This document shows, in pieces, positions 1 through 64,000 of a DNA stretch of 64,000 nucleotides. Origin of the DNA: Struthio camelus (lineage: Eukaryota); NCBI RefSeq assembly GCF_040807025.1, contig NC_090970.1, positions 837,359 to 901,358 on the forward strand, given 5' to 3'. The position numbers and the translations under genes are program-made. Every line of letters starts with the position of its first letter. Positions within the stretch are counted from its first letter, which is position 1. The notes under the pieces are model-generated. The model was not told where the DNA came from. It did not search any database and saw only the letters and a list, made by a program, of their open reading frames with translations.

Positions 1-590
1 TTTCCCGGGCACCTGGGCCCCTCCCGGACACCTGGGCCCCTCCCCGGACGCCTGGGCCCCTTTCCCGGGCACCTGGGCCCCTTCCCCGGACGCCTGGGCC
101 CCTCCCCGGACACCTGGGTCCCTCCCTGGACGCCTGGGCCCCTTTCCTGGACACCTGGGCCCCTCCCCGGACACCTGGGCCCCTCACCGCTCGTCAGTGG
201 CGCACAACCGGGCCCCCCGGGCGCTGCACATGGCGCCCAGCATCTCCTGGAGCCGCTCGTTACCTGTGTGGGTAGATGGGAGCGGGTCGGGGGTCATCCC
301 GGACGCCTGGGCCCCTCCCCTGGATGCCTGGGCCCCTCCCCCGGACACCTGGGTCCCTCCCCCGGATGCCTGGGCCCCTTCCCCGGATGCCTGGGCCCCT
401 GCCCCGGACGCCTGGGCCCCTTCCCCGGATGCCTGGGCCCCTTCCCGGACACCTGGGCCCCTTTCCCAGACACCTGGGCCCCTTCCCCGGACGCCTGGGC
501 CCCTTTCCCAGACACCTGGGCCCCTTCCCCGGACACCTGGGCCCCTCCCCCGGACGCCTGGGCCCCTTCCCCGGACGCCTGGGCCCCACG
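1..590. repeat. 20-21-bp minisatellite (CCCGGACRCCTGGGCCCCTYC)n, C-rich strand on plus; interrupted by OSGEP exon 9 (188-263)
   Basis: Read directly. Same family as the arrays at 3100-3715, 3985-4925, 10960-12060, 16560-17740, 19840-21110, 23870-25250, 26560-26900, 40200-40900, 48330-49100 and 49920-50560. Confidence 0.9.
188..263 (-). CDS. OSGEP: OSGEP exon 9 (phase-2 donor cg|GTGAGG; remaining C-terminal exons lie before position 1)
   Basis: (C)[24 protein letters not shown](R) matches human [26 protein letters not shown]. Confidence 0.85.
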
Positions 591-593
591 TAC

Positions 594-684
594 AGCCGAC
601 GCCGCCCACCAGCAGCACCTCGGGGGACCGGCACTGGGCGGCCGCTCGCTCCGTCACCTCCACCAACATGGCGAACACCGTCTC
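594..684 (-). CDS. OSGEP: OSGEP exon 8
   Basis: [30 protein letters not shown](C) matches human [31 protein letters not shown]. Donor t|GTACGT. Confidence 0.85.
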
Positions 685-849
685 CTGCGGGGGGGGGGCA
701 ATCTCACAGCGGCACCCCCAAATACCCCCCGATTCACCCCAAAATACCTCCCCGCCCCCCCCATGCCCGCTGGGACCCCCCAAAAACAACCCCTCAAAAA
801 CTGCCCCCGGAAGAAACCCTAAAACCCCCCTAATACTCTCTAATACTCA

Positions 850-2860
850 TTAATACTCACTAATACCCCATTAATACTCTTTACCCCCTACTAATAGGCC
901 TTAAAAGCCCCCAAACAACCCCAAATACCCCCAAAACAGCCCCCCAAACCCCTCCGAAAGCCCCCAACGCTCCCCAAATACCCACCGGTACTCACTCCTA
1001 CTCCGTTAATACTCCCACGTGCAAAATACCCCCAGTGGCCCCTGTGGTACCCCCAACCCTCCCCGAGCCCGATACTTCCAGATACCCCAAACGCCCCATT
1101 AATACTCCCGCCCGGCCCCAAAACACTTCTTTCCACCCCAAAGACCCCCTGAAAGCCCTCAAAAATACTCTAGCATGCAAAATACCCCATTAATACTCCG
1201 TCCTGCTCTCCAGTACTTTCCAACACCCCCGATACCCCCCCCCATATTTTAGCAACGCTCCCCCAAGGCCTCAATACCCCCCAAACGCTTCCCCCATACC
1301 CCAAATACCCCGTTAATACTCCCGGATACTACAGCCCCCCCCCCCCAGCAGCCCCCAAACGCCTCCGAACGCACCCAAGTGCCCCCCAAATACCCCCAGC
1401 GACCCTGCAAATACCCCCCACGGCGCCCCAACACCCCCAAGGGTCACCCGATACCCTTTGACACCCCCAAATACCCCCCCCGGATACTCCCAAATACCCC
1501 CAAAATACAAAAAAAATACTCCCAAATACCCCAAATACTGCCCAAGTACACCAAAATACCACCCACGTACTCCCAAATACCCCCAAATAGGAAAAATACT
1601 CCCACACACCCCCCAGATATTCACCAAGTACACCAAAATATACCCCCATACTCCCAAATACCCCCAAATAGAAAAAAAATACTCCCAAATACTCCCAAAT
1701 ACCCCCAGATACTCCCTAAGTACACCAAAATACCGCCCACGTACTCCCAAATACCCCCAAATAGGAAAAATGCTCCCACATACCCCCCAGATACTCACCA
1801 AGTACACCAAAATATACCCCCATACTCCCAAATACCTCCAAATAGAAAAAATACTCCCAAATACTCCCAAATACCCCCAGATACTCCCTAAGTACACCAA
1901 AATACCACCCATGTACTCCCAAATACCCCCAAATAGGAAAAATACTCCCACATACCCCCCAGATACTCACCAAGTACACCAAAATATACCCCCATACTCC
2001 CAAATACCTCCAAATAGAAAAAATACTCCCAAATACTCCCACATACCCCCAGATACTCCCTAAGTACACCAAAATACCACCCATGTACTCCCAAATACCC
2101 CCAAATAGGAAAAATGCTCCCACATACCCCCCAGATACTCACCAAGTGCACCAAAACATACCCCACATACTCCCAAATACCCCCAACTAGGAAAAATACT
2201 CCCAAATACCCCCCCAGATACTCCATAAGTACACCAAAATACCGCCCACGTACTCCCAAAATACCCCCAAATAGGAAAAATACTCCCAAATACCCCCAGA
2301 TACTCACCAAGTACACCAAAACACCACCCACACACTCCCAAATAGAAAAAAATGCCCCCAGATACCCCCAGATACCCCCCAAGTACACCAAAACGCCACC
2401 CAGCTACTCCCCAGCACCCCCAAAATACTCCCAAATACCCCCAGATGCTTCCAAACACCCCAAATACCCCCAGGTCCTCCCCAAATACCCCAAATTACTC
2501 CCAAAATACCCCTAAGCACCGGCCAAACGCACCCAAGTACACAACAAAATACTCCCAAATACCCCCAAACACCCCCAGGCACCCCCAGATACTCCCCAAA
2601 TACCCCAATACTAACCAAGCACACCAAAACACTCTCCAAATACCACCTAGAGAGTCCCAAAAGACCCCCAAAATGCTCCCAAATCCCCCTGGATACTCCC
2701 AAACATCCCCAAATACCCCAAGTACCCTGCAAATACCCCAAAATACTAATTCATCACCTAGATACTCCAAAATACACACAAAAATACTCTGAATTACCCC
2801 CAAATACTCCCGAATACCCCCAGGTACTCCCAAACACCCCCCGGGCGCTCTCAAATACTC
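850..2860. repeat. Strand-asymmetric A+C-rich tandem repeat (about 165-bp unit built from CCCAAATACTCCCAAATACCCCCAGATACTC... sub-motifs) in OSGEP intron 8
   Basis: Units recur at about 1700, 1865, 2030 and 2195. The plus strand is almost G-free. Confidence 0.8.
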
Positions 2861-3023
2861 TAGGCCCCCACAAATGCTCCCCCCAAACCCCAAACGTTCC
2901 CAAATTACAGCAAAACACTCCCCAAAACAGCCCCCGGGGAGCCCGGACGCCCCCCCCAGGCCCGTCCGCAGACCCCCGGACGCCTGGGCCCCCGCCCCGG
3001 ACGCCTGGGCCCCCCGCGGGCAC

Positions 3024-3099: not shown

Positions 3100-3715
3100 G
3101 CAGCCGGACGCCTGGGCCCCTCGCCCGGACGCCTGGGCCCCTTCCCCGGACACCTGGGCCCCTCGCCCGGACGCCTGGGCCCCTCGCCCGGACGCCTGGG
3201 CCCCCTCCCCGGACGCCTGGGCCCCTCGCCCGGACGCCTGGGCCCCTTCCCCGGACGCCTGGGACCCTCGCCCGGACGCCTGGGCCCCTTCCCCGGACGC
3301 CTGGGCCCCTTCCCCGGACACCTGGGTCCCTTCCCCGGACACCTGGGCCCCTCACCCGGATGCCTGGGCCCCTTCCCCGGACACCTGGGTCCCCTCCCCG
3401 GACACCTGGGCCCCTCCCCGGACACCTGGGCCCCCTCCCTGGATGCCTGGGCCCCTCCCCGGACACCTGGGCCCCTCCCCGGACACCTGGGCCCCTTCCC
3501 CGGACACCTGGGCCCCTGCCCGGACGCCTGGGCCCTTCCCCGGACACCTGGGCCCCCTCCCCGGACGCCTGGGCCCCTCCCCCGGACACCTGGGTCCCTT
3601 CCCCCGGACACCTGGGTCCCTCCCCGGACACCTGGGCCCCTTCCCCGGACACCTGGGCCCCTTCCCGGACACCTGGGCCCCTCGCCCGGACGCCTGGGCC
3701 CCTCCCGGACGCCTG
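3100..3715. repeat. 21-bp minisatellite family (C-strand on plus) in OSGEP intron 6
   Basis: ccggacgcctgggcccctcgcccggacgcctgggcccc... Confidence 0.9.
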
Positions 3716-3725
3716 GGCCCCTCAC

Positions 3726-3804: not shown

Positions 3805-3920
3805 CTGCGGCCGCAGCCCCGACCCCGCCGTCAGGGCCCCCCGGACGCCTGGGCCCCCCCTCCCCCCCCGGCCGCGTGGCAGGGGGCCCAGGCGTCCGGG
3901 CCGGCCCCCGAAACACTCAC

Positions 3921-3970: not shown

Positions 3971-3984
3971 CTGCGGGAGACCGG

Positions 3985-4925
3985 GCAGGACGTCCAACGG
4001 GGCCCAGGCGTCCGGGGAGGGCCCAGGCGTCCGGGGAGGGGCCCAGGTGTCCGGGAAAGGGGCCCAGGCGTCCGGGGAAAGGGCCCAGGTGTCCGGCGAA
4101 AGAGCCCAGGCATCCAGGGAGGGGCCCAGGCGTCCGGGGAAGGGGCCCAGGCGTCCGGGGAGGGGCCCAGGTGTCCGGGGAGGGGGCCCAGGCGTCCGGG
4201 AAAGGGGCCCAGGTGTCCGGGGAGGGGCCCAGGCATCCGGGGAGGGGCCCAGGTGTCCGGGGAGGGACCCAGGTGTCCGGGGAGGGGCCCAGGTGTCCGG
4301 GGCAGGAACCCAGGCGTCCGGGAAGGGGACCCAGGCGTCCGGGAAGGGGACCCAGGTGTCCGGGGGAGGGGCCCAGGTGTCTGGGGAAAGGGCCCAGGTG
4401 TCCGGGGAAGGGACCCAGGTGTCCGGGGAGGGGCCCAGGCGTCCGGGGCAGGAACCCAGGCGTCCGGGGCAGGAACCCAGGTGTCCGGGGCAGGGACCCA
4501 GGCGTCCGGGGCAGGAACCCAGGCGTCCGGGCCAGGGGGCCAGGTGTCCGGGGAGGGGCCCAGGCGTCCGGGGCAGGAACCCAGGCGTCCGGGCCAGGGG
4601 GCCAGGTGTCCGGGGAAGGGGCCCAGGCGTCCGGGGCCGGAACCCAGGTGTCCGGGGAAGGGACCCAGGCGTCCGGGGCAGGAACCCAGGCGTCCGGGGC
4701 AGGGACCCAGGCGTCCGGGGCCGGAACCCAGGCGTCGGGGGAAGGGACCCAGGTGTCCGGGGCAGGAACCCAGGCGTCCGGGGAGGGGCCCAGGCGTCCG
4801 GGGCCGGAACCCAGGCGTCCGGGGCAGGAACCCAGGTGTCCGGGGCAGGGACCCAGGCGTCCGGGGCAGGAACCCAGGTATCCGGGGCAGGAACCCAGGC
4901 GTCCGGTCCAGGGGGCCCAGGCGTC
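3985..4925. repeat. 21-bp minisatellite family (G-strand on plus: GGGGCCCAGGCGTCCGGGGMAGGR) in OSGEP intron 4
   Basis: Read directly. Confidence 0.9.
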
Positions 4926-4932
4926 CGGGCAC

Positions 4933-10957: not shown

Positions 10958-10959
10958 GT

Positions 10960-12060
10960 GGGGCCCCGGCGTCCGGGAGGGGCCCCGGCGTCCGGGGGGG
11001 GGCCCAGGGGTCCGGGGGAAGGGGACCCAGGTGTCCGGGAGGGGCCCAGGCGTCCGGGGAGGGGGCCCAGGTGTCCGGGAGGGGCCCAGGCGTCCGGGGA
11101 GGGGGCCCAGGTGTCCGGGGAAGGGGCCCCGGCGTCCGGGGAGGGGGCCCAGGTGTCCGGGGAAGGGGCCCAGGCGTCCGGGGAGGGGCCCAGGTGTCCG
11201 GGGAGGGGCCCCGGCGTCCGGGGAGGGGGCCCAGGTGTCCGGGGAAGGGGCCCAGGCGTCCGGGGAGGGGGCCCAGGTGTCCGGGGAGGGGGCCCAGGCG
11301 TCCGGGGAAGGGGCCCAGGCGTCCGGGGAGGGGCCCAGGTGTCCGGGGAGGGGCCCAGGTGTCCGGGGAGGGGCCCAGGTGTCCGGGGGAGGGACCCAGG
11401 CGTCCGGGAGGGGGCCCAGGCGTCCGGGGAAGGGGCCCAGGCGTCCGGGAAGGGGCCCAGGCGTCCAGGGAAGGGGCCCAGGCGTCCGGGGAGGGGCCCC
11501 GGCGTCCGGGAGGGGCCCAGGCGTCTGGGAGGGGGCCCAGGCGTCCGGGAGGGGCCCCGGCGTCCGGGAGGGGGCCCAGGCGTCCGGGAGGGGCCCCAGC
11601 GTCCAGGGAAGGGGCCCAGGCGCCCGGGGGAGGGGCCCAGGTGTCCGGGGAAGGGGCCCAGGTGTCCGGGGGGGGCCCAGGCGTCCGGGGAGGGGCCCAG
11701 GCGTCCGGGGGAAGGGGCCCAGGCATCCGGGGAGGGGGCCCAGGCGTCCGGGAGGGGCCCAGGTGTCCGGGGAAGGGACCCAGGCGTCTGGGGAAGGGAC
11801 CCAGGCGTCTGGGGAAGGGACCCAGGCGTCCGGGAAGGGACCCAGGCGTCCGGGGGAAGGGGCCCAGGTGTCCGGGGAAGGGGCCCAGGTGTCCGGGAAG
11901 GGACCCAGGCGTCCAGGGAGGGGCCCAGGCGTCCGGGGAAGGGGCCCAGGCGTCCGGGGAGGGGCCCAGGTGTCCGGGAAGGGGCCCAGGCGTCCGGGGA
12001 GGGGCCCAGGCGTCCGGATGAGGGGACCCAGGTCTCCGGGGAAGGGGCCCAGGCGTCCGG
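10960..12060. repeat. 21-bp minisatellite (G-strand) filling APEX1 intron 2
   Basis: ggggcccaggcgtccggggaggg... starts 3 nt after the exon-2 donor. Confidence 0.9.
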
Positions 12061-16559: not shown

Positions 16560-17740
16560 GCGGCCCCCAGGCTCTCCGGGGGCCCAGGCGTCCGGGGAGG
16601 GGCCCAGGCGTCCAGGGAGGGGACCCAGGTGTCCGGGGAGGGGCCCAGGTGTCCGGGGGAGGGACTCAGGCGTCCGGGGAGGGGGCCCAGGCGTCCGGGA
16701 AGGGGGCCCAGATGTCCGGGGAGGGGCCCAGGCGTCCGGGGAAGGGGCCCAGGTGTCCGGGGAGGGGCCCAGGCGTCCGGGGAGGGGGCCCAGGCGTCCG
16801 GGGAGGGGCCCAGGTGTCCGGGGGAGGGACCCAGGTGTCCGGGGAGGGGCCCAGGTGTCCGGGGAAGGGCCCAGGCGTCCGGGGAAGGGGCCCAGGTGTC
16901 CGGGGCAGGGACCCAGGTGTCCGGGGAGGGGCCCAGGTGTCCGGGGAAGGGCCCAGGCGTCCGGGGAAGGGCCCAGGTGTCCGGGGAGGGGCCCAGGTGT
17001 CCGGGGGAGGGGCCCAGGTGTCCGGGGGAGGGACTCAGGCGTCCGGGGAAGGGGCCCAGGTGTCCGGGGGGGGGGCCCAGGTGTCCGGGGACAGGGGCCC
17101 AGGCGTCTGGGTGAGGGGCCCAGGCGTCCGGGGGGGGGCCCAGGCGTCCGGGGAGGGGCCCAGGCGTCCGGGGAGGGGGCCCAGGTGTCCGGGGAGGGGG
17201 CCCAGGCGTCCGGGGAGGGGCCCAGGTGTCCGGGGGAGGGACCCAGGTGTCCGGGGAAGGGGCCCAGGCATCCGGGGAAGGGCCCAGGTGTCCGGGGAGG
17301 GGCCCAGGTGTCCGGGGGAGGGACTCAGGCGTCCGGGGAAGGGGCCCAGGTGTCCGGGGGGGGGGCCCAGGTGTCCGGGGACAGGGGGCCCAGGCGTCTG
17401 GGGAAGGGGCCCAGGCGTCCGGGTGAGGGGCCCAGGCGTCCGGGGAGGAACCCAGGCGTCCGGGGAAAGGGCCCCGGTGTCCGGGGAGGGGCCCAGGTGT
17501 CCGGGTGAGGGGCCCAGGTGTCCGGGGAGGGGCCCAGGTGTCCGGGGAGGGGCCCAGGCGTCCGGGAAGGGGCCCAGGTGTCCGGGGGAGGGACCCAGGT
17601 GTCCGGGGCAGGGGCCCAGGCGGCCGGGGGAGGGACCCAGGCGTCCGGGGCAGGGGCCCAGGCGTCCGGGTGAGGGGCCCAGGCGTCCGGGTGAGGGGCC
17701 CGGGTGTCCGGGGAGGAAAGAACAAAACGGGCCCAGGCGT
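16560..17740. repeat. 21-bp minisatellite (G-strand), APEX1-PIP4P1 intergenic
   Basis: Read directly. Confidence 0.9.
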
Positions 17741-17747
17741 CCGGGGC

Positions 17748-19839: not shown

Positions 19840-21110
19840 TGCGGGCCCGGACGCCTGGGTCCCTCGGCTCGGACGCCTGGGCCCCTCCCCGGACGCCTGG
19901 GTCCCCTTCACCGGACGCCTGGGCCCCTCCCCGGACACCTGGGTCCCCTTCACCAGACGCCTGGGTCCCTCCCCGGACGCCTGGGTCCCCTTCCCCGGAC
20001 GCCTGGGTCCCCTTCCCCGGACGCCTGGGCCCCTTCCCCGGACGCCTGGGCCCCTCCCCGGACGCCTGGGCCCCCTCCCCGGACGCCTGGGTCCCCTTCA
20101 CCGGACGCCTAGGCCCCTCCCCGGACGCCTGGGCCCCTCCCCGGACGCCTGGGTCCCCTTCACCGGACGCCTGGGCCCCTTCCCCGGACACCTGGGCCCC
20201 TCCCCAGATGTCTGGATCCCCTTCACCGGACACCTGGGCCCCTTCCCCGGACGCCTGGGCCCCCTCCCCGGACGCCTGGGTCCCCTTCACCGGACGCCTG
20301 GGCCCCCTTCACCGGACGCCTGGGCCCCCTTCACCGGACACCTAGGCCTCTTCCCGGACACCTGGGCCCCTCCCCGGACGCCTGCGTCCCTCGGCTCAGA
20401 CACCTGGGCCCCTCCCTGGACACCTGGGCCCCTTCCCCAGACGCATGGGCCCCTCCCCGGACACCTGGGCCCCTCCCCGGACGCCTGGGCCCCCTTCACC
20501 GGACACCTAGGCCTCTTCCCGGACACCTGGGCCCCTCCCCGGACACCTGGGCCCCTTCCCCGGACACCTGGGCCCCTTCCCGGACGCCTGGGCCCCTCCC
20601 GGACACCTGGGCCCCTCCCCGGACACCTGGGCCCCTTCCCCGGACGCCTGGGCCCCCTTCCCCGGACACCTGGGCCCCTTCCTGGACACCTGGGCCCCCT
20701 TCCCCGGACACCTGGGCCCCTCCTGGACACCTGGCCTCCTCCCCGCACGCCTGGGTCCCCTTCACCGGACTCCTGGGCCCCTTCCCGGACACCTAGGCCT
20801 CTTCCCGGACGCCTGGGCCCCTCCCCGGACGCCTGGGTCCCTTCCCCGGACGCCTGGGCCCCCTCCCCGGACGCCTGGGTCCCCTCCCCGGACGCCTGGG
20901 CCCCTTCCCCAGACGCCTGGGCCCCTCCCCCGGACACCTGGGCCCCTCCCCCGGACACCTGGGCCCCCTCCCCCGGACACCTGGGCCCCCTCCCCGGACA
21001 CCTGGGTCCCCTTCACCGGACACCTGGGCCCCTCCCCGGACACCTGGGTCCCCTTCACCGGACGCCTGGGCCCCCTCCCCCGGACGCCTGGGCCCCTCCC
21101 CGGACGCCGG
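19840..21110. repeat. 21-bp minisatellite filling PIP4P1 intron 6
   Basis: Read directly. Confidence 0.9.
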
Positions 21111-21124
21111 GGCCCCTCACTCAC

Positions 21125-21215: not shown

Positions 21216-21445
21216 CTGGGGGGGGGGGGGGGTCGACAAGGGACCCAGGCGTCCGGGGAGGGGACCCAGGCGTCCGGGCCCGGATCCCCCCCCCCCCTCC
21301 CTTCCCCACCTCCAACCTCCCCGTCCAGCACCCACGGGGGAGCCCAGGCGTCCGGGCTCCCCCCCCCTCCCCCCCGCCATGAAGGGACAGGGGTGCCTGG
21401 GGCCCCTCCCCCGCCGCGAGGGGCCCAGGCGTCCGGGGCACTCAC

Positions 21446-26550: not shown

Positions 26551-27099
26551 GGGGGGGCCGGACACCTGGGTCCCTCCCCGGACACCTGGGCCCCTCACCC
26601 GGGACGCCTGGGCCCCTTTCCCGGACACCTGGGCCCCTTCCCCTGGACACCTGGGCCCCTCCCCGGACGCCTGGGCCCCTCCCCGGACGCCTGGGCCCCT
26701 CCCGGGACGCCTGGGCCCCTCCCCGGACTCCTGGGCCCCTTCCCCGGACACCTGGGCCCCTTCCCCGGACGCCTGGGCCCTTCCCCGGACACCTGGGCCC
26801 CTTCCCCGGACACCTGAGTCCCTCCCCGGACGCCTGGGCCCATCACCCGGACGCCTGGGCCCCTTCCCCGGACGCCTGGGCCCCTCACCCGGACACCTGG
26901 GCCCGTTGCCCACTTCCGGGTTGCCCCTTTCCCTCGTTCCCCCCCCCCGTCCCCCGCCGGCCCGAACCAGCCAATCAGGAGGCGGCGCGGCGCTCACACC
27001 CCCCGCCGGGCCGGCCAATCAGAGTGCGGCTCTCCTGACACGCCTTCCCTCCCCCATCCACCCTAGGGGCCCAGGCGTCCGGGCCCTGCCCTACGCGTG

Positions 27100-45659: not shown

Positions 45660-47760
45660 GCGGTTCGGGGAGGGGCGGGGGGGGGGCCCAGGCGTCCGGG
45701 TGCTTTAACCCCCTCCCGCCCCCCCCCATCCCCTCCCACAAAGGGCCCAGGCGTCCGGGGACCCGCCATCCTGCCCATCCCCCCCCTAAAGGGCCCAGGT
45801 GTCCGGGGACCCTCCATCCTGCCCATCCCCCACCCCGAAGGGCCCAGGCGTCCGGGGACCCACCATCCTGTTCATCCCCCCCCAAAGGGCCCAGGCGTCC
45901 GGGTGTCTTAACCCCCCCCCCAAAGGGCCCAGGCGTCCGGGGACCCTCCATCCTGCCCATCCCCCCCCCCCAAAGGGCCCAGGCATCCGGGTGTCTTAAC
46001 CCCCCCCCACCCCAATGGGCCCAGGCGTCCGGGTGTCTTAACCCCCCCCCCAAAGGGCCCAGGCGTCCGGGGACCCTCCATCCTGCTCATCCCCCCCCTA
46101 AAGGGCCCAGGCGTCCGGGTGTCTTAACCCCCCCCCCAAAGGGCCCAGGCGTCCGGGGACCCTCCATCCTCTTCATCCCCCCCCTAAAGGGCCCAGGCGT
46201 CTGGGTGTCTTAACCCCCCCCATCCCCCACCCCAAAAGGGCCCAGGCGTCCGGGGACCCACCATCCTGCCCATCCCCCACCCCCAAAGGGCCCAGGCGTC
46301 CGGGTGTCTTAACCCCCCCCCATCCCCACCCCAAAAGGGCCCAGGCGTCCGGGGACCCTCCATCCTGCCCATCCCCCCCCCAAAGGGCCCAGGCGTCCGG
46401 GTGTCTTAACCCCCCCCCCAAAGGGCCCAGGCGTCCGGGTGTCTTAACCCCCCCATCCCCCCCCCAAAAGGGCCCAGGCGTCCAGGGACCCACCATCCTG
46501 CCCATCCCCCCCCCAAAAGGGCCCAGGCGTCCGGGGACCCTCCATCCTGCCCATCCCCCCCCTAAAGGGCCCAGGCGTCCGGGTGTCTTAACCCCCCCCA
46601 TCCCCCCCCCAAAAGGGCCCAGGCGTCCAGGGACCCTCCATCCTGCCCATCCCCCCCCAAAAGGGCCCAGGCGTCCGAGTGTCTTAACCCCCCCCCCCAA
46701 AGGGCCCAGGCGTCCGGGTGTCTTAACCCCCCCCCAAAAGGGCCCAGGCGTCCGGGGACCCGCCATCCTGCCCATCCCCCCCCCAAAGGGCCCAGGCATC
46801 CGGGTGTCTTAACCCCCCCCATCCCCCACCCCGAAGGGCCCAGGCGTCCGGGGACCCTCCATCCTGCCCATCCCCCCCCAAAAGGGCCCAGGCGTCCGGG
46901 TGTCTTAACCCCCCCCCCAATGGGCCCAGGCGTCCGGGTGTCTTAACCCCCCCCCCAAAAGGGCCCAGGCGTCCGGGTGTCTTAACCCCCCCCCCCAAAA
47001 GGGCCCAGGCGTCCGGGGACCCTCCATCCTGTTCATCCCCCCCCCAAAGGGCCCAGGCGTCCGGGTGTCTTAACCCCCCCCATCCCCCCCCCAAAGGGCC
47101 CAGGCGTCCGGGGACCCGCCATCCTGCCCATCCCCCCCCAAAAGGGCCCAGGCGTCCGGGTGTCTTAACCCCCCCCCCCCAATGGGCCCAGGCGTCCGGG
47201 TGTCTTAACCCCCCCCCCAAAAGGGCCCAGGCGTCCGGGTGTCTTAACCCCCCCCCCCCCAAAAGGGCCCAGGCGTCCGGGGACCCGCCATCCTGCCCAT
47301 CCCCCCCCTAAAGGGCCCAGGCGTCCGGGGACCCGCCATCCTGTTCATCCCCCCCCAAAGGGCCCAGGCGTCCGGGTGTCTTAACCCCCCCCCAAAAAGG
47401 GCCCAGGCGTCCGGGGACCCTCCATCCTGCCCATCCCCCACCCCGAAGGGCCCAGGCGTCCGGGGACCCTCCATCCTGCCCATCCCCCACCCCGAAGGGC
47501 CCAGGCGTCCGGGGACCCTCCATCCTGCCCATCCCCCCCCCAAAGGGCCCAGGCGTCCGGGGACCCTCCATCCTGCCCATCCCCCCCCCAAAGGGCCCAG
47601 GCGTCCGGGGACCCTCCATCCTGCCCATCCCCCACCCCGAAGGGCCCAGGCGTCTGGGGACCCGCCATCCTGCCCATCCCCCACCCCGAAGGGCCCAGGC
47701 GTCCGGGGACCCTCCATCCTGCCCATCCCCCCCCCAAAAGGGCCCAGGCGTCCGGGTGCC
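45660..47760. repeat. About 42-84-bp tandem repeat (AAAGGGCCCAGGCGTCCGGGTGTCTTAACCCCCCC / ...GGGGACCCTCCATCCTGCCCATCCCCCCCC)n downstream of the PNP stop codon
   Basis: Read directly. Confidence 0.9.
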
Positions 47761-48130: not shown

Positions 48131-49868
48131 AGCACCAATTTAATGGGAAAAGGGGCGGAGGGGGAGGTAGGGGGAGAGACGGGGCCCCTCCCCCACCCCC
48201 AGGGGGCCCAGGCGTCCGGGCACGGCCCCTCCCCCCAGTCTGGGGTATTTATAGCCTGGAGATGCCCCTGCCCCTCCCCCACCCTGGAGGGGCCCAGGCG
48301 TCCGGCTCGTGGGTGCCGGGGTGGGGGTGGGGGGGGCTGGTCGGGAACCCGGACGCCTGGGCCCCTTCCCGGACACCTGGGCCCCTCGCCGGACGCCTGG
48401 GACCTTCCCGGACGCCTGGGCCCCCTTGCCCGGACGCCTGGGCCCCTCACCCGGACGCCTGGGCCCCTTCCCCGGACACCTGGGTCCCTCCCCGGACGCC
48501 TGGGCCCCTCCCCGGACGCCTGGGCCCCCTCCCCGGACGCCTGGGCCCCTCCCGGACGCCTGGGCCCCTTCCCCGGACACCTGGGCCCCCTCCCCGGACA
48601 CCTGGGCCCCTCCCCAGACGCCTGGGCCCCTTCACCGGACGCCTGGGCCCCCTCCCCGGATGCCTGGGCCCCTCCCCCGGACACCTGGGCCCCTTCCCCG
48701 GACACCTGGGCCCCTTCCCCGGACGCCTGGGCCCCTTCCCTGAACGCCTGGGCCCCTCCCTGGACGCCTGGGCCCCTTCGCGGACACCTGGACCCCTGTC
48801 CCGGACGCCTGGGCCCCTCCCGGACGCCTGGGCCCCCTCCCCGGACACCTGGGCCCCTCCCCGGACACCTGGGCCCCCCCCGGACACCTGGGCCCCTCCC
48901 CGGACGCCTGGGCCCCTTCCCTGAACGCCGGGGCCCCTTCCCGGACACCTGGGCCCCTTCCCCGGACACCTGGGCCCCTCCCCTGGACGCCTGGGCCCCC
49001 TCCCCGGACGCCTGGGCCCCTTCCCCGGACACCTGGGCCCCTCCCCGGACGCCTGGGCCCCTTCCCCGGACACCTGGGCCCCTCCCCTGGACGCCTGGGC
49101 CCCCTTGCCCGGACGCCTGGGCCCCGCGCGGGCAGTGAAGCAGTTCTGGGCCGGCGGCGGCGCCCGGACGCCTGGGTCCCCCGGAGGCCCCGGGAGGGGG
49201 AGCGGGAGCACCCGGACGCCTGGGCCCCGTCCCAGAAAGAGGCGCTGCGGGGGGGGGGGAGACGCCTGGGGCTCCGAGCGGGGGAGGAAACCGGTTCCTC
49301 CGGGGACGCCTGGGCCCCCCCCTTCCCGGACGCCTGGGCCCCGCCCTGCGGGGGTGTCCCGGGTGGGGGAGGGGCGGGGATCCCCGGCGGCGGCCGGGGG
49401 GGGAGGGGCGGGGGGAGGGGCAGGGGTGGGGGAGGGGCCGCTCGCCGTCAAAGGCAAGTGAAGGTGGCCGGAGAACGGAGGTACCCGGACGCCTGGGCCC
49501 CTTCTCGGACGCCTGGGCCCCTTTTTAGGCCTAACCCGGACGCCTGGGTCCCTTGCGGGGCTTAGTCGACCGCTTTGGGCACCTGCCCCCCGGACGCCTG
49601 GGCCCCTCTCAGACGCCTGGGTCCCTGCCCGGACGCCTGGGCCCCTCCCGGACGCCTGGGTCCTTTTTGGGTGCCGCTGGGACGCCTGGGCCCCTTCCCA
49701 GATGCCTGGGTCCCTGCCCGGACGCCTGGGCCCTTCCCAGTCTCCTGGGACCCGGACGCCTGGGTCCTCCCCCCTCCTCGCCAGGGGAATTATGGGATAG
49801 CGGGGGTGTCGATGGTGGGGGGGGTCGGAGGTCACGACCTCTGACCCTTCCCCCCCCCCCCCAAGGCC

Positions 49869-49916: not shown

Positions 49917-50856
49917 GTGAGCGCACCCCTCCCCCAGCCCCGGGGGCCCCGGTGTCCGGGGAGGGGGCCCAGGTGTCTGGGCGACGGGGGCCCAGGTGTC
50001 CGGGGAGGGGCCCAGGCGTCCGGGGAGGGGCCCAGGTGTCCGGGCGAGGGGGGCCCAGGTGTCTGGGAGAGGGGCCCAGGTGTCCGGGGAGGGGCCCAGG
50101 TGTCCGGGCGAGGGGGGCCCAGGTGTCCGGGGAGGGACCCAGGTGTCTGGGAGAGGGACCCAGGTGTCCGGGCGAGGGGGGCCTAGGCGTCCGGGGAGGG
50201 GCCTAGGCGTCCGGGCGAGGGGGGCCCAGGTGTCCGGGCGAGGGGGGCCCAGGCGTCCGGGCAAGGGGCCCAGGTGTCCGGGGAGGGGCCCAGGTGTCCG
50301 GGAAGGGGCCCAGGTGTCCGGGGAGGGGCCCAGGCGTCCGGGGAGGGGCCCAGGTGTCCGGGGAAGGGGCCCAGGTGTCCGGGCGAGGGGGGCCCAGGCG
50401 TCCGGGCAAGGGGCCCAGGTGTCCGGGGAGGGGCCCAGGTGTCCGGGGAAGGGGCCCAGGTGTCCGGGGGGGGGCCCAGGTGTCCAGGGAAGGGGCCCAG
50501 GTGTCCGGGCAAGGGACCCAGGTGTCCAGGAAGGGGCCCAGGCGTCCAGAGAGGCCCCTCAGAGCCTTCCTGGGGCGGGGGGGGGGGTTAAGGAGAAGTA
50601 ATTGGAGGGGAGGGCTGTATTAAGGGTTAATTAATACTTAATTAAGGGTTAATTAAAGGTTTATTAATGGTTAATTAACGGTTAATTACGTCTGCAGTCG
50701 GGAGGGTAATCGAGGCGACGAGGGGGCGATTTTGGGGGGGTATTTGGGGAGGGTGATTAATCACGGGGGGGTGATTAATTGCAGGGGGGGTCAATTAAGG
50801 GTTAATTGGGGGGGGGGGACATGGAGGACGGTTCATGACGGGTGTCCCCCCCGCAG

Positions 50857-50965: not shown

Positions 50966-50989
50966 GTGAGTGCCGGACGCCTGGGCCCC

Positions 50990-51900
50990 CGTCTCCCCCG
51001 GACGCCTGGGCCCCTTCCTCCATTGGGTGGACCCTTCCCCGGACGCCTGGGCCCTTCCCCGGACACCTGGGCCCCTGCCCCGGACGCCTGGGCCCCTTCC
51101 TCCATTGCATGGACTCTTCTCCGGACGCCTGGGCCCCCTTCCCCGGACACCTGGGCCCCTGCCCCGGACGCCTGGGCCCCTTCCTCCGTTGCATGGACTC
51201 TTCTCCGGACGCCTGGGCCCCTTCCCCGGACGCCTTGGCCCCTTCCTCCACTGGGTGTACCCTTCCCCGGACGCCTGGGCCCCCTCCCCGGACGCCTGGG
51301 CCCCCTCCCCGGACACCTGGCCCCCTTCCCCAGACACCTGGCCCCCTTCCCCGGATGCCTGGGCCCCCTTCCCCGGACGCCTGGGCCCCTTTCCCTGGAC
51401 GCCTGGGCCCCTTCTTCCATTGCGTGGACCCTTTCCCGGACGCCTGGGCCCCTTCCCCGGATGCCTGGGCCCCTTCCTCCACTGGGTGTACCCTTCCCCG
51501 GACGCCTGGGCCCTTTCCCTGGACGCCTGGGCCCCTTCCCCGGATGCCTGGGCCCTTCCTCCGTTGCATGGACTCTTCTCCGGACGCCTGGGCCCCCATC
51601 TCGCCCGGACGCCTTGGCCCCTTCCTCCATTGGGTGGACCCTTCCCCGGATGCCTGGGCCCCTTTCCCGGACGCCTGGGCCCCTTCTTCCATTGCGTGGA
51701 CCCTTTCCCGGACGCCTGGGCCCCTTCCTCCATTGCGTGGACCCTTTCCCAGATGCCTGGGCCCCCTTCCCCGGACGCCTGGGCCCTTCCCGTGTTGCAT
51801 GGGCCCCCTTCCCCGGACGCCTGGGCCCTTCCCCCATTGGGTGGACCCTTCCCTGGATGCCTGGGCCCCTTCCTCCATTGGGTGGACCCCTCCCCGGACG
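50990..51900. repeat. About 60-bp repeat (GGACGCCTGGGCCCCTTCCTCCATTGGGTGGACCCTTCCCC)n in an NDRG2 intron
   Basis: Read directly. Confidence 0.85.
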
Positions 51901-51934
51901 CCTGGGCCCCTCTCCCCCTCTTCCCCCCCCCCAG

Positions 51935-59290: not shown

Positions 59291-59322
59291 GAGCGACCCC
59301 CCCCCCCCGACCCCCCCAACAG

Positions 59323-60112: not shown

Positions 60113-60114
60113 GT

Positions 60115-61669: not shown

Positions 61670-62770
61670 CCGGGGAGCCGTTGCCGGGGCAACGGGGCAC
61701 TGTGGAGGGTTGGGCGGAGGGGGCGTGGCCGGCGGCGGTCTGGGCCAATGGGATGGCTGCTGACTGGGCCGGGGAGGGGGGGGGGAGTGTTGCCGGGGCA
61801 ACGGGGCGCGGAGGGGAGGGCTGCTGACTGGGCGGGGGGAACGTTGCCAGGGCAACGGGGCGCGGAGGGGAGGGCTGCTGACTGGGCGGGGGAACGTTGC
61901 CAGGGCAACGGGGCGCGGAGGGGAGGGCTGCTGACTGGGCGGGGGAACGTTGCCAGGGCAACGGAGCGAGGAGGGGAGGGCTGCTGACTGGGCGGGGGAA
62001 CGTTGCCAGGGCAACGGGGCGCGGAGGGGAGGGCTGCTGACTGGGCGGGGGAACGTTGCCAGGGCAACGGGGCGCGGAGGGGAGGGCTGCTGACTGGGCG
62101 GGGGAACGTTGCCAGGGCAACGGGGGGCGGAGGGGAGGGCTGCTGACTGGGCGGGGGGGAACGTTGCTACGGCAACGGGGCGCGGAGGGGAGGGCTGCGG
62201 CGGGCTGGGACAATGGGATGGCTGCTGACTGGGCGGGGGGAACGTTGCCAGGGCAACGGGGCGCGGAGGGGAGGGCTGCTGACTGGGCGGGGGAACGTTG
62301 CCAGGGCAACGGAGCGAGGAGGGGAGGGCTGCTGACTGGGCGGGGGAACGTTGCCAGGGCAACGGGGCGCGGAGGGGAGGGCTGCTGACTGGGCGGGGGG
62401 GAACGTTGCTACGGCAACGGGGCGCGGAGGGGAGGGCTGCGGCGGGCTGGGACAATGGGATGGCTGCTGACTGGGCGGGGGGAACGTTGCCAGGGCAACG
62501 GGGCGCGGAGGGGAGGGCTGCTGACTGGGTGGGGACAGCGTTGCCAGGGCAACAGGGCGCGGAGGGGAGGGCTGCGGCGGGCTGGGCCAATGGGGTGGCT
62601 GCTGACTGGGCCGGGGGGGGGGGAGCGGGAGTGTTGCCGGGGCAACGGGGCGCGGAGGGGAGGGTAGCGGTGGAGGGGGCGTGGCCTGCAGCGGTCTGGC
62701 CCAATGGGGTGGCTGCTGACTGGGTCGGGGAGAGGGAAGCGTTGCCGGGGCAACGGGGGAAGCGTTGCAG
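61670..62770. repeat. About 59-bp tandem repeat of about 18 copies in the last NDRG2 intron, each containing the palindrome GTTGCCAGGGCAAC (RFX X-box consensus GTTGCC-NN-GGCAAC)
   Basis: Unit GGCTGCTGACTGGGCGGGGGAACGTTGCCAGGGCAACGGGGCGCGGAGGGGAGG. Variants GTTGCCGGGGCAAC and GTTGCTACGGCAAC. Followed at 62660-63030 by about 8 copies of GGGGGCGTGGCC (GC-box like) just upstream of the terminal exon. Confidence 0.8.
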
Positions 62771-63051
62771 CGGAGGGGGCGTGGCCAGCGGTGAAGTGGG
62801 CCAATGGGGCGGGAGGGGGCGTGGCCAGCGCGTGTGTATCGACGGTGGGGAGAACGGGCCAAGAGGAAGGGGGCGCGGCCGGGGTGGGCGTGGCCGGGGT
62901 GGAATGGGCGTGGCCAGCGGAGGGAGTGGGCGTGGCCAGGGGGCAGCAGCCAGCGCTCTCCCTGCCGGAGCTGCGCTATTACGCGGGGGGGCGGGGGCGT
63001 GGCCTCCGAGGGGCGGGGGCGTGGCCTAACTCGCCCCCGCCCCCTCCGCAG

Positions 63052-63179
63052 TGGCATCGTCGTGCATGACACGGCTGTCGCGGTCGCGCACGGCCTCGCT
63101 CTCCAGCGGCGCCTCGGGCGACGGCGGCCGGGCCCGGAGCCTGTCGCGGGGCAGCGAGGCTTCGCCCGCCGCCTGCTGA
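63052..63179 (+). CDS. NDRG2: NDRG2 terminal coding exon (TGA 63177-63179)
   Basis: Acceptor cccctccgcag. (M)[41 protein letters not shown] matches human [40 protein letters not shown].... Shorter Ser/Arg tail than human. Confidence 0.85.
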
Positions 63180-63189
63180 ACCCGCCGCC

Positions 63190-64000
63190 CCCTCCCCAAA
63201 TCCTCCCCAGATCCCCCCCGGACTCCATAGCCCCCCCCCCAAAACCCTCCCCAGACTCGAAATCCCCCCAAATCCTCCCCAGACGCCCCCCCCCCGGACT
63301 CGATACCCCCCCAATATCCCCCCAAATCCTCCCCAGACCCCCCTGGACTCGATATCCCCCCCGATATCCCCCCCAAAACCCTTCCCAGACCCGATATCCC
63401 CAATATCCCCCCATATCTTCCCCAGACCCCCCCCCGGACTCGATGTCCCCCCCAATATCCCCCCAAATCCCCCTGGACTCGATATCCTCCCAATATCCCC
63501 CCAAATCCTTCCCAGACCCCCTCCCTGGACTTGATATCCCCCCCAATATCCCCCCAAATCCTTCCCAGACCCCCCCTGGACTCGATATCCCCCCAATATC
63601 CCCCCAAATCCTCCCCAGATCCCCCTGGACTCGATATCCTCCCCAATATCCCCCCAAATCCTCCCCAGACCCCCTCTCAGACTCGATATCCCCCCCGATA
63701 TCCCCCCCAAATCCTTCCCAGACCCCCCGGGACTCGATATCCTCCCCAATATCCCCCCAAATCCTTCCCAGACCCCCTCTCAGACTCGATATCCCCCCCA
63801 ATATCCCCCCAAATCCTCCTCAGACCCCCTCTCAGACTCGATATCCTCCCAATATCCCCCCAAATCCTTCCCAGACCCCCTCTCAGACTCGATATCCCCC
63901 AATATCCCCCCAAATCCTCCTCAGACCCCCTCTCAGACTCGATATCCCCCCCAATATCCCCCCAAATCTTCCTCAGACCCCCTCTCAGACTCGATATCCC
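63190..64000. repeat. About 60-bp tandem repeat (CCCCAGACCCCCTGGACTCGATATCCCCCCAATATCCCCCCAAATCCT)n in the NDRG2 3'UTR
   Basis: Read directly. Begins 10 nt after the stop codon and continues to the window end. Confidence 0.85.

What the first reader, a model, noticed from the sequence alone, without database searches (positions are those of the whole stretch)
1..64000. A single 20-21-bp minisatellite family occupies most introns in both orientations and is also dispersed as single units in promoter DNA
GGGGCCCAGGCGTCCGGGGAGGG and its complement, with variants GGTGTCC, GGAGTCC, GGCATCC, fills at least 12 separate introns or intergenic segments. Within the NDRG2 promoter (49140-49700) the 17-bp core CCGGACGCCTGGGCCCC occurs repeatedly as isolated single copies inside otherwise unique sequence, suggesting a seeding motif or protein-binding site that expands by slippage. 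On the G-rich strand each unit supplies GGGG-A-GGGG, a dense potential G-quadruplex array. Orientation switches between neighbouring introns.
Basis: seen in the sequence. Interest (0 to 1): 0.5.

Follow-up and report, generated by a model that had tools for sequence, protein, structure and literature searches.

The report
Ancient dispersed intron minisatellite of ostrich
A 21-base GC-rich repeat really does fill a quarter of this ostrich gene cluster, but it is the local form of the tandem repeats already known to stuff bird "dot-chromosome" introns; the arrays sit at the same introns, in the same orientation, in distant birds, while the repeat sequence differs between lineages.

Summary
The core CCGGACGCCTGGGCCCC occurs 625 times (0.28 expected), in about 17 arrays or clusters covering 25% of the window, in both orientations. 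"Most introns" is overstated: 12 of 33 complete introns hold it. TRF marks 77% of the window as tandem repeat, mostly other families.

The window is ostrich: OSGEP, APEX1, PIP4P1, PNP and NDRG2. Arrays fill introns from 1-31 nt after the donor to 11-84 nt before the acceptor. Orientation is unrelated to transcription.

G4 potential is only borderline. Mean G4Hunter is about 1.0, there are almost no canonical motifs, and the family scores below the rest of the window. No CTCF- or ZNF143-like match was found. The solitary copies are real, and two near NDRG2 exon 1 are conserved in seriema.

Comparison with emu, gulls, seriema and frogmouth shows that a GGGRCCCA-N7-GGGG superfamily occupies the same introns in the same orientation across the palaeognath-neognath split, each lineage having its own unit.

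The best explanation is old resident arrays that expand by out-of-register repair and are kept alike by ectopic gene conversion. It is a new member of the published "sequence stuttering" minisatellites. Deep positional conservation with concerted evolution is the added point.

The parts
5..183 (+). Array, 9 copies, C-rich core on + strand. OSGEP intron 9, cut by the window edge. The sense strand of OSGEP (-) is G-rich.
299..587 (+). Array, 14 copies of 21 bp. Fills 88% of OSGEP intron 8, starting 4 nt after the donor.
2976..3013 (+). Two copies next to OSGEP exon 7. The rest of intron 7 holds an unrelated CCCAAATAC-type array.
3104..3721 (+). Array, 30 copies. Fills 97% of OSGEP intron 6, and the donor GTGAGG runs straight into GGGCCCAGG. 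Gulls have a 90-bp intron here, so this is an ostrich-side expansion.
3841..3899 (.). Perfect 19-bp inverted pair of single units inside the 110-bp OSGEP intron 5. It marks the point where array orientation flips.
3999..4928 (-). Array, 39-43 copies, with private GGGTTCC variants. Fills 97% of OSGEP intron 4. The orthologous gull intron holds the gull-type unit in the same orientation.
10960..12060 (-). Array, 52-54 copies. Fills 93% of the APEX1 intron between coding exons at 10805-10957 and 12145-12351. Orthologous arrays in gulls and single copies in seriema have the same orientation.
16579..17744 (-). Array, 55 copies, intergenic between the 3' ends of APEX1 and PIP4P1. Gulls hold a same-orientation array at this place.
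19847..21116 (+). Array, 54-59 copies, with a private 22-bp CTTCA spacer and 42-bp periodicity. Fills 98% of the last PIP4P1 intron.
21240..21436 (-). Four spaced copies in a 230-bp PIP4P1 intron.
21522..22919 (-). Array of a derived 25-27-bp unit, 47-54 copies. Fills 96% of a PIP4P1 intron. Gulls and seriema carry the superfamily here in the same orientation.
23876..25237 (+). Array, 63-66 copies, 41/62-bp higher-order periodicity. Fills 98% of a PIP4P1 intron. Absent from the 360-385-bp orthologous introns of gulls and seriema.
26558..26905 (+). Array, 16-17 copies, upstream of the PIP4P1 promoter region.
27066..27082 (-). Solitary exact copy.
40176..40913 (+). Array, 24-26 copies, 90% of a PNP intron. 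The sense strand is C-rich. Seriema has one copy in the same orientation.
41195..42765 (-). Array of derived 25-33-bp units with core GGACTCC, 56 copies, 94% of the next PNP intron. Together with the previous array it forms an inverted pair around PNP exon 40984-41163.
45683..47755 (-). 48-bp compound repeat, each unit holding one core copy (46 copies), downstream of the PNP stop.
48203..48305 (-). Two solitary exact copies flanking a TATTTATAG box at 48245. The first is orthologous to a seriema copy at the same distance from the same box.
48349..49342 (+). Regular array to 49125 (about 38 copies), then spaced single copies at 49164, 49212, 49303 and 49327. It lies between the TATA-like box and the conserved GC-box/exon-1 block. 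That interval is about 135 bp in seriema and about 1225 bp here.
49485..49768 (+). Loose cluster of 9-11 copies with irregular 19-54-bp spacing, downstream of a conserved GAAG|GTGG donor-like site. Seriema has exactly one copy here and goose has none.
49943..50549 (-). Array, 27-29 copies, NDRG2 intron 1. The sense strand is G-rich.
50973..51910 (+). Array, 31-32 copies, 97% of NDRG2 intron 2. Emu has a 63-copy array of the same core, in the same orientation, in the orthologous intron.

Best explanation
This is the ostrich form of the GC-rich minisatellites that fill the euchromatin of avian dot chromosomes. It is not a gene, an RNA or a transposon.

A superfamily with unit GGGRCCCA-N7-GGGG-N2-3 (21 bp, two helical turns) has sat in a fixed subset of introns and spacers of the OSGEP-APEX1-PIP4P1-PNP-NDRG2 cluster, in fixed orientation, since before ostrich and neognath birds split. 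This part is shown.

Each array grows and shrinks by out-of-register repair or replication in steps of one to three units. It comes to occupy all intron sequence not needed for splicing. The edge-to-edge filling is shown; the mechanism is inferred.

The dispersed arrays are kept alike by non-allelic gene conversion. This is why one unit type is found in about 17 places in both orientations in ostrich, a slightly different spacer type in emu, and a quite different central heptamer in all gull arrays. This step is inferred from the pattern; concerted evolution itself is shown.

Solitary copies are the same element in the unexpanded state.

No function is required. The arrays are most likely a by-product of very high recombination and GC-biased repair, tolerated because they stop short of splice signals.
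For: Source:
- Ostrich NDRG2 isoform X1 is encoded exactly by the window.
- The syntenic genes carry the expected Pfam hits in orthologous loci.

One family:
- 625 copies against 0.28 expected.
- Cosine similarity of 14-mer spectra is high between arrays 37 kb apart and does not depend on distance (Spearman -0.08, Mantel p 0.18) or on orientation.

Not a transposon:
- Flanks share nothing beyond single units.
- Arrays begin 1-31 nt after donors and end 11-84 nt before acceptors (NDRG2 intron 1: 310 nt), covering 86-98% of 11 of the 12 introns that hold the family and 65% of NDRG2 intron 1.

Positional and orientational orthology:
- The generic pattern occurs on the same strand in ostrich, two gulls and seriema in OSGEP i4, i8 and i9, the APEX1 intron, the APEX1-PIP4P1 spacer and a PIP4P1 intron.
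- It is absent in all species from six other segments.
- Emu NDRG2 intron 2 and a seriema PNP intron agree.

Concerted evolution:
- Ostrich-type core: 625 in ostrich, 203 in emu, 2-3 in gulls.
- Gull-type core: 0 in ostrich, 122-150 in gulls.
- Gull 62-bp higher-order repeats keep an ostrich-like third subunit.
- Two emu arrays 21 kb apart and inverted share TTTC/TTTTC spacers that are rare in ostrich.

Local growth:
- Private variants per array.
- 41-, 42- and 62-bp periodicities in some arrays.

Literature on the kind: PMC12954441; bioRxiv 10.1101/2025.10.17.683159; 10.1101/2025.10.14.682431.
Against: - Gene conversion between arrays is inferred from the pattern. No conversion tract was demonstrated.
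- The generic superfamily pattern was written after seeing both unit types. Its zero counts on other segments and strands are the only control.
- Only one locus was compared, and frogmouth, goose and cuckoo lack the ostrich-type core. Loss or replacement must therefore be common.
- The 8:1 excess of CA over TG at the second CpG, in arrays of either orientation, is not explained.
- Near-perfect solitary copies inside unique sequence in ostrich and emu, two of them conserved in seriema, fit a selected binding site at least as well as a neutral one.
- Assignment to a dot chromosome was not tested.
Confidence: 0.65

Rival explanations
1. The 17-bp core is a protein-binding site (or a G-quadruplex-forming regulatory element). 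It pre-exists as single copies, is expanded into arrays by slippage, and is kept by selection as a binding or structure platform.
For: - Solitary copies are exact or near-exact while their surroundings are unique.
- Two copies bracketing NDRG2 exon 1, one about 25 bp upstream of a TATTTATAG box and one about 15 nt after a GAAG|GTGG site, are conserved in place and orientation between ostrich and seriema.
- The core is nearly unchanged between ostrich and emu.
- Relaxed long-central-loop G4 motifs (GGGG-A-GGGG-N11-GGGG-A-GGGG) are frequent, about 250 in the arrays.
- Unit junctions give GGGGAGGGG (143 exact) and the TG variant gives CAGGTG (206).
Against: - Recalled CTCF and ZNF143 consensus strings give 0 hits in the arrays.
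- G4Hunter means are 0.33-1.20, canonical G4s are almost absent, and the family is less G4-prone than the rest of the window.
- Hairpin folding is no better than in shuffles.
- Orientation is unrelated to transcription.
- Goose and cuckoo NDRG2 loci and the frogmouth locus lack the core.
- In gulls the central heptamer was replaced in every array. That is hard to reconcile with a conserved recognition sequence.
Confidence: 0.17
2. Purely local 'sequence stuttering'. Each intron expanded its own pre-existing sequence independently, and the arrays look alike only because GC-rich donors and introns started out similar.
For: - Arrays start at donors whose sequence (G|GTGAGGGG, G|GTGGGG) differs by one base from the unit junction GGGGAGGGG.
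- Every array has private variants.
- Hron et al. report a local origin and species-independent expansion for chicken (PMC12954441).
- Other families in the window are local and position-conserved.
Against: - The same 17-bp core occurs in about 17 places with no isolation by distance.
- Independent origin cannot produce the same seven-base replacement in all gull arrays, or the shared emu spacer type.
Confidence: 0.1
3. A mobile element carrying an internal minisatellite delivered the arrays to many introns in either orientation.
For: Dispersed copies occur in both orientations. Solitary copies are scattered in unique DNA.
Against: - No shared flanks, terminal repeats or duplications: all flank matches are <=26 bp and are the unit itself.
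- Arrays abut the splice sites.
- Positions and orientation are orthologous across very distant birds.
- No Rfam family was found in the window.
Confidence: 0.04
4. An assembly or sequencing artefact of a hard-to-sequence GC-rich region.
For: These regions are known to give HiFi coverage drop-outs (10.1101/2025.10.14.682431).
Against: - Units are imperfect, with array-specific variants.
- Exons between arrays are intact and encode the RefSeq protein exactly.
- An independent emu assembly has the same core in the orthologous intron.
Confidence: 0.02

Closest known systems
Intron 'sequence stuttering' on chicken dot chromosomes (Hron et al. 2026, Genome Biol Evol, PMC12954441)
   Same: - GC-rich, gene-dense bird DNA.
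- Introns made almost wholly of imperfect tandem repeats that never enter exons.
- Intergenic DNA affected too.
- TRF coverage of 77% here, within their 7-93% per-chromosome medians.
   Different: - They describe motifs of local origin, different in each intron and expanded independently in each species.
- This family is shared by about 17 introns and spacers of five genes, in both orientations.
- Its positions and orientation are conserved between palaeognaths and neognaths.
- Exon-derived copies were not seen for this family.
Dot-chromosome intronic minisatellites of the zebra finch T2T genome (Formenti et al. 10.1101/2025.10.14.682431; Smeds et al. 10.1101/2025.10.17.683159)
   Same: - Degenerate 10-30-bp units, with lengths in multiples of 10-11 bp.
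- More than 70% of dot-chromosome introns affected.
- Association with G4 and direct-repeat annotations.
[quoted passage not shown]
   Different: - Their unit sequence is not given in the text or supplements held here, so identity could not be tested.
- They report G4s enriched on the coding strand of introns. Here the split is 8 G-rich to 5 C-rich, and G4Hunter is sub-threshold on average.
PO41, the 41-bp chicken/quail tandem repeat (Solinhac et al. 2010, PMC3091757; Trofimova et al. 2014, PMC4301066)
   Same: - G-rich/C-rich strand asymmetry.
- Found in both tandem and inverted orientation.
- Linked to a recombination hotspot on a microchromosome.
- The 20+21-bp dimer here gives a 41-bp period.
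   Different: - PO41 is 63% G+C and mainly subtelomeric in long arrays.
- This unit is about 80% G+C and sits inside introns.
- The sequences could not be compared.
Classical GC-rich hypervariable minisatellites of mammals (Jeffreys-type; from general knowledge)
   Same: - Unit of tens of bp with purine/pyrimidine strand bias.
- Arrays of 0.2-2 kb.
- Interspersed unit variants.
- Growth by recombination-associated repair.
   Different: - Mammalian loci are mostly unrelated to one another and subtelomeric.
- Here one family is dispersed through neighbouring introns and evolves in concert.
- Hypervariability was not tested.
Concerted evolution of dispersed satellite arrays ('library'/molecular-drive models; from general knowledge)
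   Same: Lineage-specific unit types are homogenised across physically separate arrays.
   Different: Such models are usually described for heterochromatic satellites, not for arrays confined within the introns of housekeeping genes with orientation preserved.

Membership tests
Avian dot-chromosome intronic minisatellites / sequence stuttering | Lies in GC-rich, gene-dense bird euchromatin on a dot chromosome | tested here: inconclusive
   The window is bird (ostrich), 55-80% G+C, and holds five genes in 64 kb. Which chromosome it comes from cannot be checked with these tools.
Avian dot-chromosome intronic minisatellites / sequence stuttering | Introns consist largely of imperfect tandem repeats | tested here: met
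   TRF covers 77% of the window. The family covers 86-98% of 11 of the 12 introns that hold it, and 65% of the twelfth, NDRG2 intron 1.
Avian dot-chromosome intronic minisatellites / sequence stuttering | Repeat blocks stay within introns and exons remain intact | tested here: met
   Arrays stop 1-31 nt from donors and 11-84 nt from acceptors (310 nt in NDRG2 intron 1). NDRG2 exons encode the RefSeq protein exactly.
Avian dot-chromosome intronic minisatellites / sequence stuttering | Unit lengths are multiples of 10-11 bp | tested here: met
   Units are 20-21 bp. 68% of array bases with basic period <=66 have periods of 10-11, 20-22, 31-32, 41-42, 51-53 or 62-63.
Avian dot-chromosome intronic minisatellites / sequence stuttering | Local origin: each intron has its own motif, expanded independently in each species | tested here: not met
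   The same core occurs in about 17 segments, with no isolation by distance. Positions and orientation are shared with gulls, seriema and emu. Other families in the window do fit this feature.
Avian dot-chromosome intronic minisatellites / sequence stuttering | Extensive intron length variation between individuals | not testable with these tools
   Only one ostrich haplotype is available. The ostrich locus could not be fetched from another assembly.
G-quadruplex-forming repeat array | Four runs of >=3 G with loops of 1-7 nt | tested here: not met
   There are 0-1 such motifs per array, and 7 in the derived 29-33-bp array.
G-quadruplex-forming repeat array | G4Hunter score (25-nt window) at or above 1.2-1.5 | tested here: inconclusive
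   G-strand means are 0.33-1.20 per array (-0.94 for the derived 48-bp array). Between 0 and 55% of windows reach 1.2 and 0-19% reach 1.5. Consensus multimers score 1.2-1.3. Outside the family 20% of windows reach 1.5. Motifs with loops up to 12 nt number about 250.
G-quadruplex-forming repeat array | Folds into a quadruplex in vitro or in vivo | not testable with these tools
   This needs CD, NMR, G4-seq or BG4 assays.
Transposon-borne or otherwise mobile minisatellite | Arrays are flanked by shared element sequence, terminal repeats or target duplications | tested here: not met
   All-against-all comparison of 150-bp flanks gives only <=26-bp matches, which are unit copies.
CTCF / ZNF143 binding-site arrays | The unit matches the factor's consensus | tested here: not met
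   There are 0 matches in the arrays at <=1 mismatch to CCASYAGRKGGCRSY, TTCCCAGAATGCATTGCG or YCCCAGAATGC.
PO41 41-bp repeat of Galliformes | 41-bp unit, 63% G+C, mainly subtelomeric | tested here: not met
   The basic period is 20-21 bp, with 41-42-bp periodicity in only some arrays. G+C is 78%. The location is intronic.
Classical hypervariable minisatellite | GC-rich 10-100-bp unit with strand asymmetry, in arrays of hundreds of bp to kb with interspersed variants | tested here: met
Classical hypervariable minisatellite | High germline length mutation rate and allelic hypervariability | not testable with these tools
   No population data are available.

The most novel reading that the evidence does not exclude
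The arrays are not just debris. On this reading, a set of intronic and promoter-proximal sites has been held in place and orientation since the base of crown birds, and its 17-21-bp unit is the target of a conserved DNA-binding or break-initiating activity in a clade that lacks PRDM9.

The arrays would then be amplified platforms for that activity, for example preferred recombination-initiation or pairing sites that secure the obligate crossover on tiny chromosomes. Chromosome-wide ectopic conversion would keep them matched to the factor. The gull lineage, having switched to a different heptamer, would be a case of co-evolution.

Inverted arrays around exons would in addition form dsRNA hundreds of bp long in pre-mRNA.
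Probability: 0.12. Interest if true: 0.8.

Novelty: new member of a known kind. Interest (0 to 1): 0.48.

Why it matters
The published accounts of repeat-filled bird dot-chromosome introns treat the repeats as local and independently expanded in each species.

This locus shows a different picture. A subset of arrays is old, fixed in place and orientation over the deepest split of living birds. The unit sequence is nevertheless replaced lineage by lineage in all arrays together.

If that holds genome-wide, these introns would be a natural system for measuring non-allelic gene conversion and repeat turnover in the most recombinogenic part of a vertebrate genome. It would also bear on why these genes are so hard to sequence and so GC-rich.

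The practical consequences are modest:
- The G4 story is weaker than it looks by eye.
- The solitary copies at the NDRG2 5' end are candidates for a reporter test.
- Exons bracketed by inverted arrays are candidates for circular RNA or editing.

Tried and rejected
- **Literature search for the unit.** Full-text search for six 15-mers of the unit found no paper.
- **Metagenome scan.** These look like chance hits, and they say nothing about distribution.
- **Rfam.** Nothing was found in the window.
- **Fetching the ostrich locus from another assembly** to measure length polymorphism. The RefSeq isoforms are not on record in the locus index.
- **Hypothesis of an ancestral 41-bp dimer** (a CA-unit of 20 bp plus a CG-unit of 21 bp). 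Rejected: there is no association between core type and unit length (Fisher p = 1) and no alternation beyond chance.
- **Hairpin or cruciform propensity of single strands.** It is no better than in dinucleotide shuffles, with z from -0.2 to +1.6.
- **Isolation by distance between arrays.** None was found.
- **Shared flanks, as expected for a transposon.** None was found.
- **CpG-island status.** CpG observed/expected is 0.46 in the arrays, which is not island-like despite the high CpG density.
- **Supplements of Smeds et al.** Searched for the zebra finch unit sequence, without result.
- **PO41 papers.** They give no sequence.
- **Not attempted.**
  - Searching protein databases with translations of the repeat, to map its taxonomic spread. 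This was judged too unspecific for the cost.
  - Structure prediction, which is irrelevant for non-coding repeats.

Full report
**What the window is.**
Six-frame translation and tblastn place five genes in the window.
- OSGEP (-, exons from 7773 down to 185).
- APEX1 (+, 10805-14761).
- PIP4P1/TMEM55B (-, 25730-19710).
- PNP (+, 38010-45640).
- NDRG2 (+, 49869-63179).

The same order, with the matching Pfam families, is annotated in orthologous bird loci.

The RefSeq protein 'NDRG2-like isoform X1 [Struthio camelus]' (333 aa) is encoded exactly by 14 window exons. 330 residues were placed as exact strings and the other 3 fall at exon junctions, consistent with split codons. The window is therefore ostrich.

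It is 55-80% G+C. Tandem Repeats Finder covers 77% of it. This is the signature of the euchromatin of avian dot chromosomes as described recently (PMC12954441; 10.1101/2025.10.14.682431; 10.1101/2025.10.17.683159). The chromosome itself could not be checked.

**Check of the observation.**
The core CCGGACGCCTGGGCCCC has 625 matches at <=2 mismatches, against 0.28 expected. They form 23 clusters spanning 16.3 kb, or 25% of the window.

The basic unit is 20-21 bp. Three arrays carry derived units:
- 25-27 bp at 21522-22919.
- 25-33 bp with core GGACTCC at 41195-42765.
- A 48-bp compound at 45683-47755.

At the second CpG the copies read CG 367, CA 219, TG 27 and CT 28.

With the exon maps, 12 of 33 complete introns (plus OSGEP intron 9, cut by the window edge) hold the family. 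Four or five further arrays are intergenic or upstream. 'Most introns' is therefore overstated. The remaining introns are short or hold unrelated families: the 10-mers CCTCCCAGTG and GGGGGGTCCT, an 11-mer, a 31/62/124-bp family of 10 kb, and others.

**Anatomy.**
Where present, the family covers 86-98% of the intron, except 65% in NDRG2 intron 1. It begins 1-31 nt after the donor and ends 11-84 nt before the acceptor, 310 nt in NDRG2 intron 1. Donors run straight into the unit: G|GTGAGGGGCCCAGG, G|GTGGGGCCCC and G|GTGCCCGGACGCC. The arrays thus occupy everything except the splice signals.

Every array has private variants. Examples are GGGTTCC in 3999-4928, a CTTCA spacer in 19847-21116, CTGC in 23876-25237 and CCTCGC in 49943-50549.

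Some arrays show 41-, 42- or 62-bp periodicity as strong as or stronger than 21 bp. Growth is therefore local, in steps of one to three units. The data do not separate polymerase slippage from unequal exchange.

Orientation runs along the window as + + + + + | - - - - | + | - - | + + | - || + | - - - | + + | - | +. Relative to the gene, the sense strand is G-rich in 8 intron arrays and C-rich in 5, so orientation does not follow transcription.

Several exons are bracketed by inverted arrays. Predicted RNA duplexes between 200-nt pieces are -314 to -483 kcal/mol for three of these pairs (-270 for a fourth), against -217 to -241 for shuffles. That is a possible consequence, not a demonstrated one.

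- G4Hunter (25-nt windows) gives means of 0.33-1.20 on the G strand (0.72-1.20 for the regular arrays; the derived 48-bp array at 45683-47755 scores -0.94).
- Between 0 and 55% of windows reach 1.2 and 0-19% reach 1.5.
- Canonical motifs with loops <=7 number 0-1 per array.
- Only with loops up to 12 nt (GGGG-A-GGGG-N11-GGGG-A-GGGG) do motifs become frequent.
- The family is less G4-prone than the rest of the window (11% versus 20% of windows at 1.5) and far below the GGGGGGTCCT array (mean 1.93).
- Single strands fold no better than shuffles.
The only simple motifs supplied are GGGGAGGGG at unit junctions and CAGGTG in the TG variant.
- CpG observed/expected is 0.46.

**Comparative evidence.**
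Orthologous loci were fetched through proteins found by homology search.

Frogmouth, hornbill, goose and cuckoo have no copy of the ostrich-type core at <=2 mismatches.

Emu has 203 copies:
- A 63-copy array in the intron orthologous to ostrich NDRG2 intron 2, in the same orientation.
- Further arrays, and blocks of solitary copies, downstream.

Gulls (Larus, Rissa) have only 2-3 ostrich-type cores but 122-150 copies of their own 21-bp unit, GGGACCCACATCTATGGGGCT. That unit is absent from ostrich. It shares GGGRCCCA and GGGG with the ostrich unit at the same spacing. Gull 62-bp higher-order repeats also contain a third subunit, GGGGGGCCCAGGTGCCCGGG, that is ostrich-like.

The pattern GGG[AG][AC]?CCCA-N6-8-GGG was counted per orthologous segment and strand:
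- It falls on the same strand in ostrich, both gulls and (as a few copies) seriema in OSGEP introns 9, 8 and 4, the APEX1 intron, the APEX1-PIP4P1 spacer and one PIP4P1 intron.
- It is absent from all species in six other segments.
- It is never on the opposite strand, apart from one copy in Larus OSGEP intron 4 and two in the frogmouth APEX1 intron.
- My arithmetic on these counts: all six gull-positive segments fall among the ten ostrich-positive of sixteen (chance 210/8008 = 0.026), and orientation agrees in 6 of 6 (chance 1/64).
- Emu NDRG2 intron 2 and a seriema PNP intron agree as well.

Seriema carries single copies of the ostrich-like unit (GGGGACCCAGGTGTCCGGGG, GGGAACCCAGGCGTCCGGGG) where ostrich has arrays.

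The arrays, or at least their sites, therefore predate the palaeognath-neognath split. That is on the order of 70-110 million years by published datings, a figure quoted from memory.

**How it most likely works.**
Three facts together call for sequence exchange between arrays (concerted evolution by non-allelic gene conversion or template switching during repair):
- The places and orientation are conserved across lineages.
- The unit is uniform among arrays within a lineage but different between lineages.
- Similarity shows no decay with distance or orientation inside the window. The APEX1 array is most like the array upstream of NDRG2, 37 kb away and inverted.

Seven arrays in gulls cannot each have made the same seven-base change independently. 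Two emu arrays, 21 kb apart and inverted, share TTTC/TTTTC spacers that are rare in ostrich.

A transposon vector is unlikely. Flanks share nothing but the unit, and arrays abut the splice sites.

Purely local stuttering explains the private variants and the donor-adjacent starts. It does not explain the shared core.

What is shown: one family, edge-to-edge filling of introns, positional and orientational orthology, and lineage-specific units. What is inferred: conversion as the homogenising process, recombination-driven expansion, and neutrality.

**The solitary copies and the NDRG2 5' end.**
Ostrich 48203-48219 (- orientation) lies about 25 bp upstream of TATTTATAGCC (48245). Seriema has GGGGGAACCCAGGCGTCCGGG at a similar distance from the same box.

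Ostrich 49485 (+) follows a conserved block, GGGGTGGGGGAGGGG...CAAAGGCAAGTGAAG|GTGG, by about 15 nt. Seriema has one copy there, while goose keeps the block but has no copy.

Between the two landmarks seriema has about 135 bp. Ostrich has about 1225 bp, made of the 48349-49125 array and spaced copies.

Two of the solitary copies are old. That allows a binding-site reading but does not demonstrate one. Their absence in goose and cuckoo argues against an essential role.

**Unexplained.**
- At the second CpG, CA outnumbers TG by 219 to 27 in arrays of either orientation, while the first CpG decays symmetrically (31 versus 36). CA and CG units are randomly interspersed and unrelated to spacer length.
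- Near-perfect solitary copies amid unique spacers occur in both ostrich and emu.

**Comparison with what is known, and verdict.**
The thing belongs to the recently described class of dot-chromosome intronic minisatellites. It meets the features that could be tested:
- Repeat-filled introns.
- Intact exons.
- Units in multiples of about 10.5 bp.

It departs from the published 'local origin, independent expansion' description. The zebra finch papers already mention a specific minisatellite dominating introns and spacers.

None of the unit 15-mers searched, the core and its common CA variant, appears in the searchable literature.

I rate it a new member of a known kind. The added point, deep positional and orientational conservation with concerted replacement of the unit, would need a genome-wide test.

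Noticed in passing
window 7952-8464 (and L002 8925-9687): A 70-bp unit repeated 7.3 times at 97% identity sits in the OSGEP/APEX1 bidirectional promoter. Each unit holds a CCAAT box (CTGATTGGCTGG) and GC boxes. Frogmouth has tandem CTGATTGGCC units at the same place, so promoter elements themselves are tandemly multiplied.
   Followed up: partly
window 25861-26201: A 103-bp unit repeated 3.3 times (92%) carries CACGTG, GC boxes and ATTGG. It lies just upstream of PIP4P1 exon 1 and is a second multiplied promoter block.
   Followed up: no
window 17900-18300 (and L002 22229-23695): Repeated AAGATGGCGGC (YY1-like) motifs lie between the 3' ends of APEX1 and PIP4P1. Frogmouth has CCAAGATGGCCGCCGTG arrays at the same place. 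This may mark an unannotated promoter or an insulator.
   Followed up: no
L002 19457-19816 and 20479-20763: Two partial copies of the APEX1 last exon lie downstream of the gene in frogmouth. This is exon stuttering in the sense of Hron et al., and it was not seen in ostrich.
   Followed up: no
window 5341-6937 and 8603-10766; L124, L126, L002, L001: Arrays outside the family are also position-conserved across bird orders. GCACACGCTAA/GACACGCCAAG-type repeats sit in OSGEP intron 2, and CCAGTATAGA plus CCTCCCAGT 10-mers sit in the 5' APEX1 intron.
   Followed up: partly
all family arrays (e.g. 3104-3721, 16579-17744, 49943-50549): The second CpG of the unit reads CA in 219 copies but TG in only 27, whatever the array orientation. 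The first CpG decays symmetrically (31 versus 36). The CA units are randomly interspersed.
   Followed up: partly
window 3810-3919: The 110-bp OSGEP intron 5 contains a perfect 19-bp inverted pair of single units with a 23-nt spacer. It sits exactly where array orientation flips from + to -.
   Followed up: no
window 40176-42765, 49943-51910, 3104-4928: Exons are bracketed by inverted arrays. Predicted RNA duplexes between 200-nt pieces are -314 to -483 kcal/mol, against about -235 for shuffles. These exons are candidates for back-splicing or RNA editing.
   Followed up: partly
L128 28042-33220: Downstream of emu NDRG2, near-perfect single units are separated by unique spacers and arranged in blocks of alternating orientation. 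This is the same mode as the ostrich 49485-49768 cluster.
   Followed up: partly
L129 11640-11810: Goose has a CCCCTATAGA 10-mer array immediately upstream of the conserved NDRG2 exon-1 block, where ostrich and seriema have a single TATTTATAG box. This may be a stuttered TATA region.
   Followed up: no
protein search: Larus michahellis has at least five 'NDRG2-like' RefSeq proteins on different contigs, which suggests duplication of this gene in gulls.
   Followed up: no
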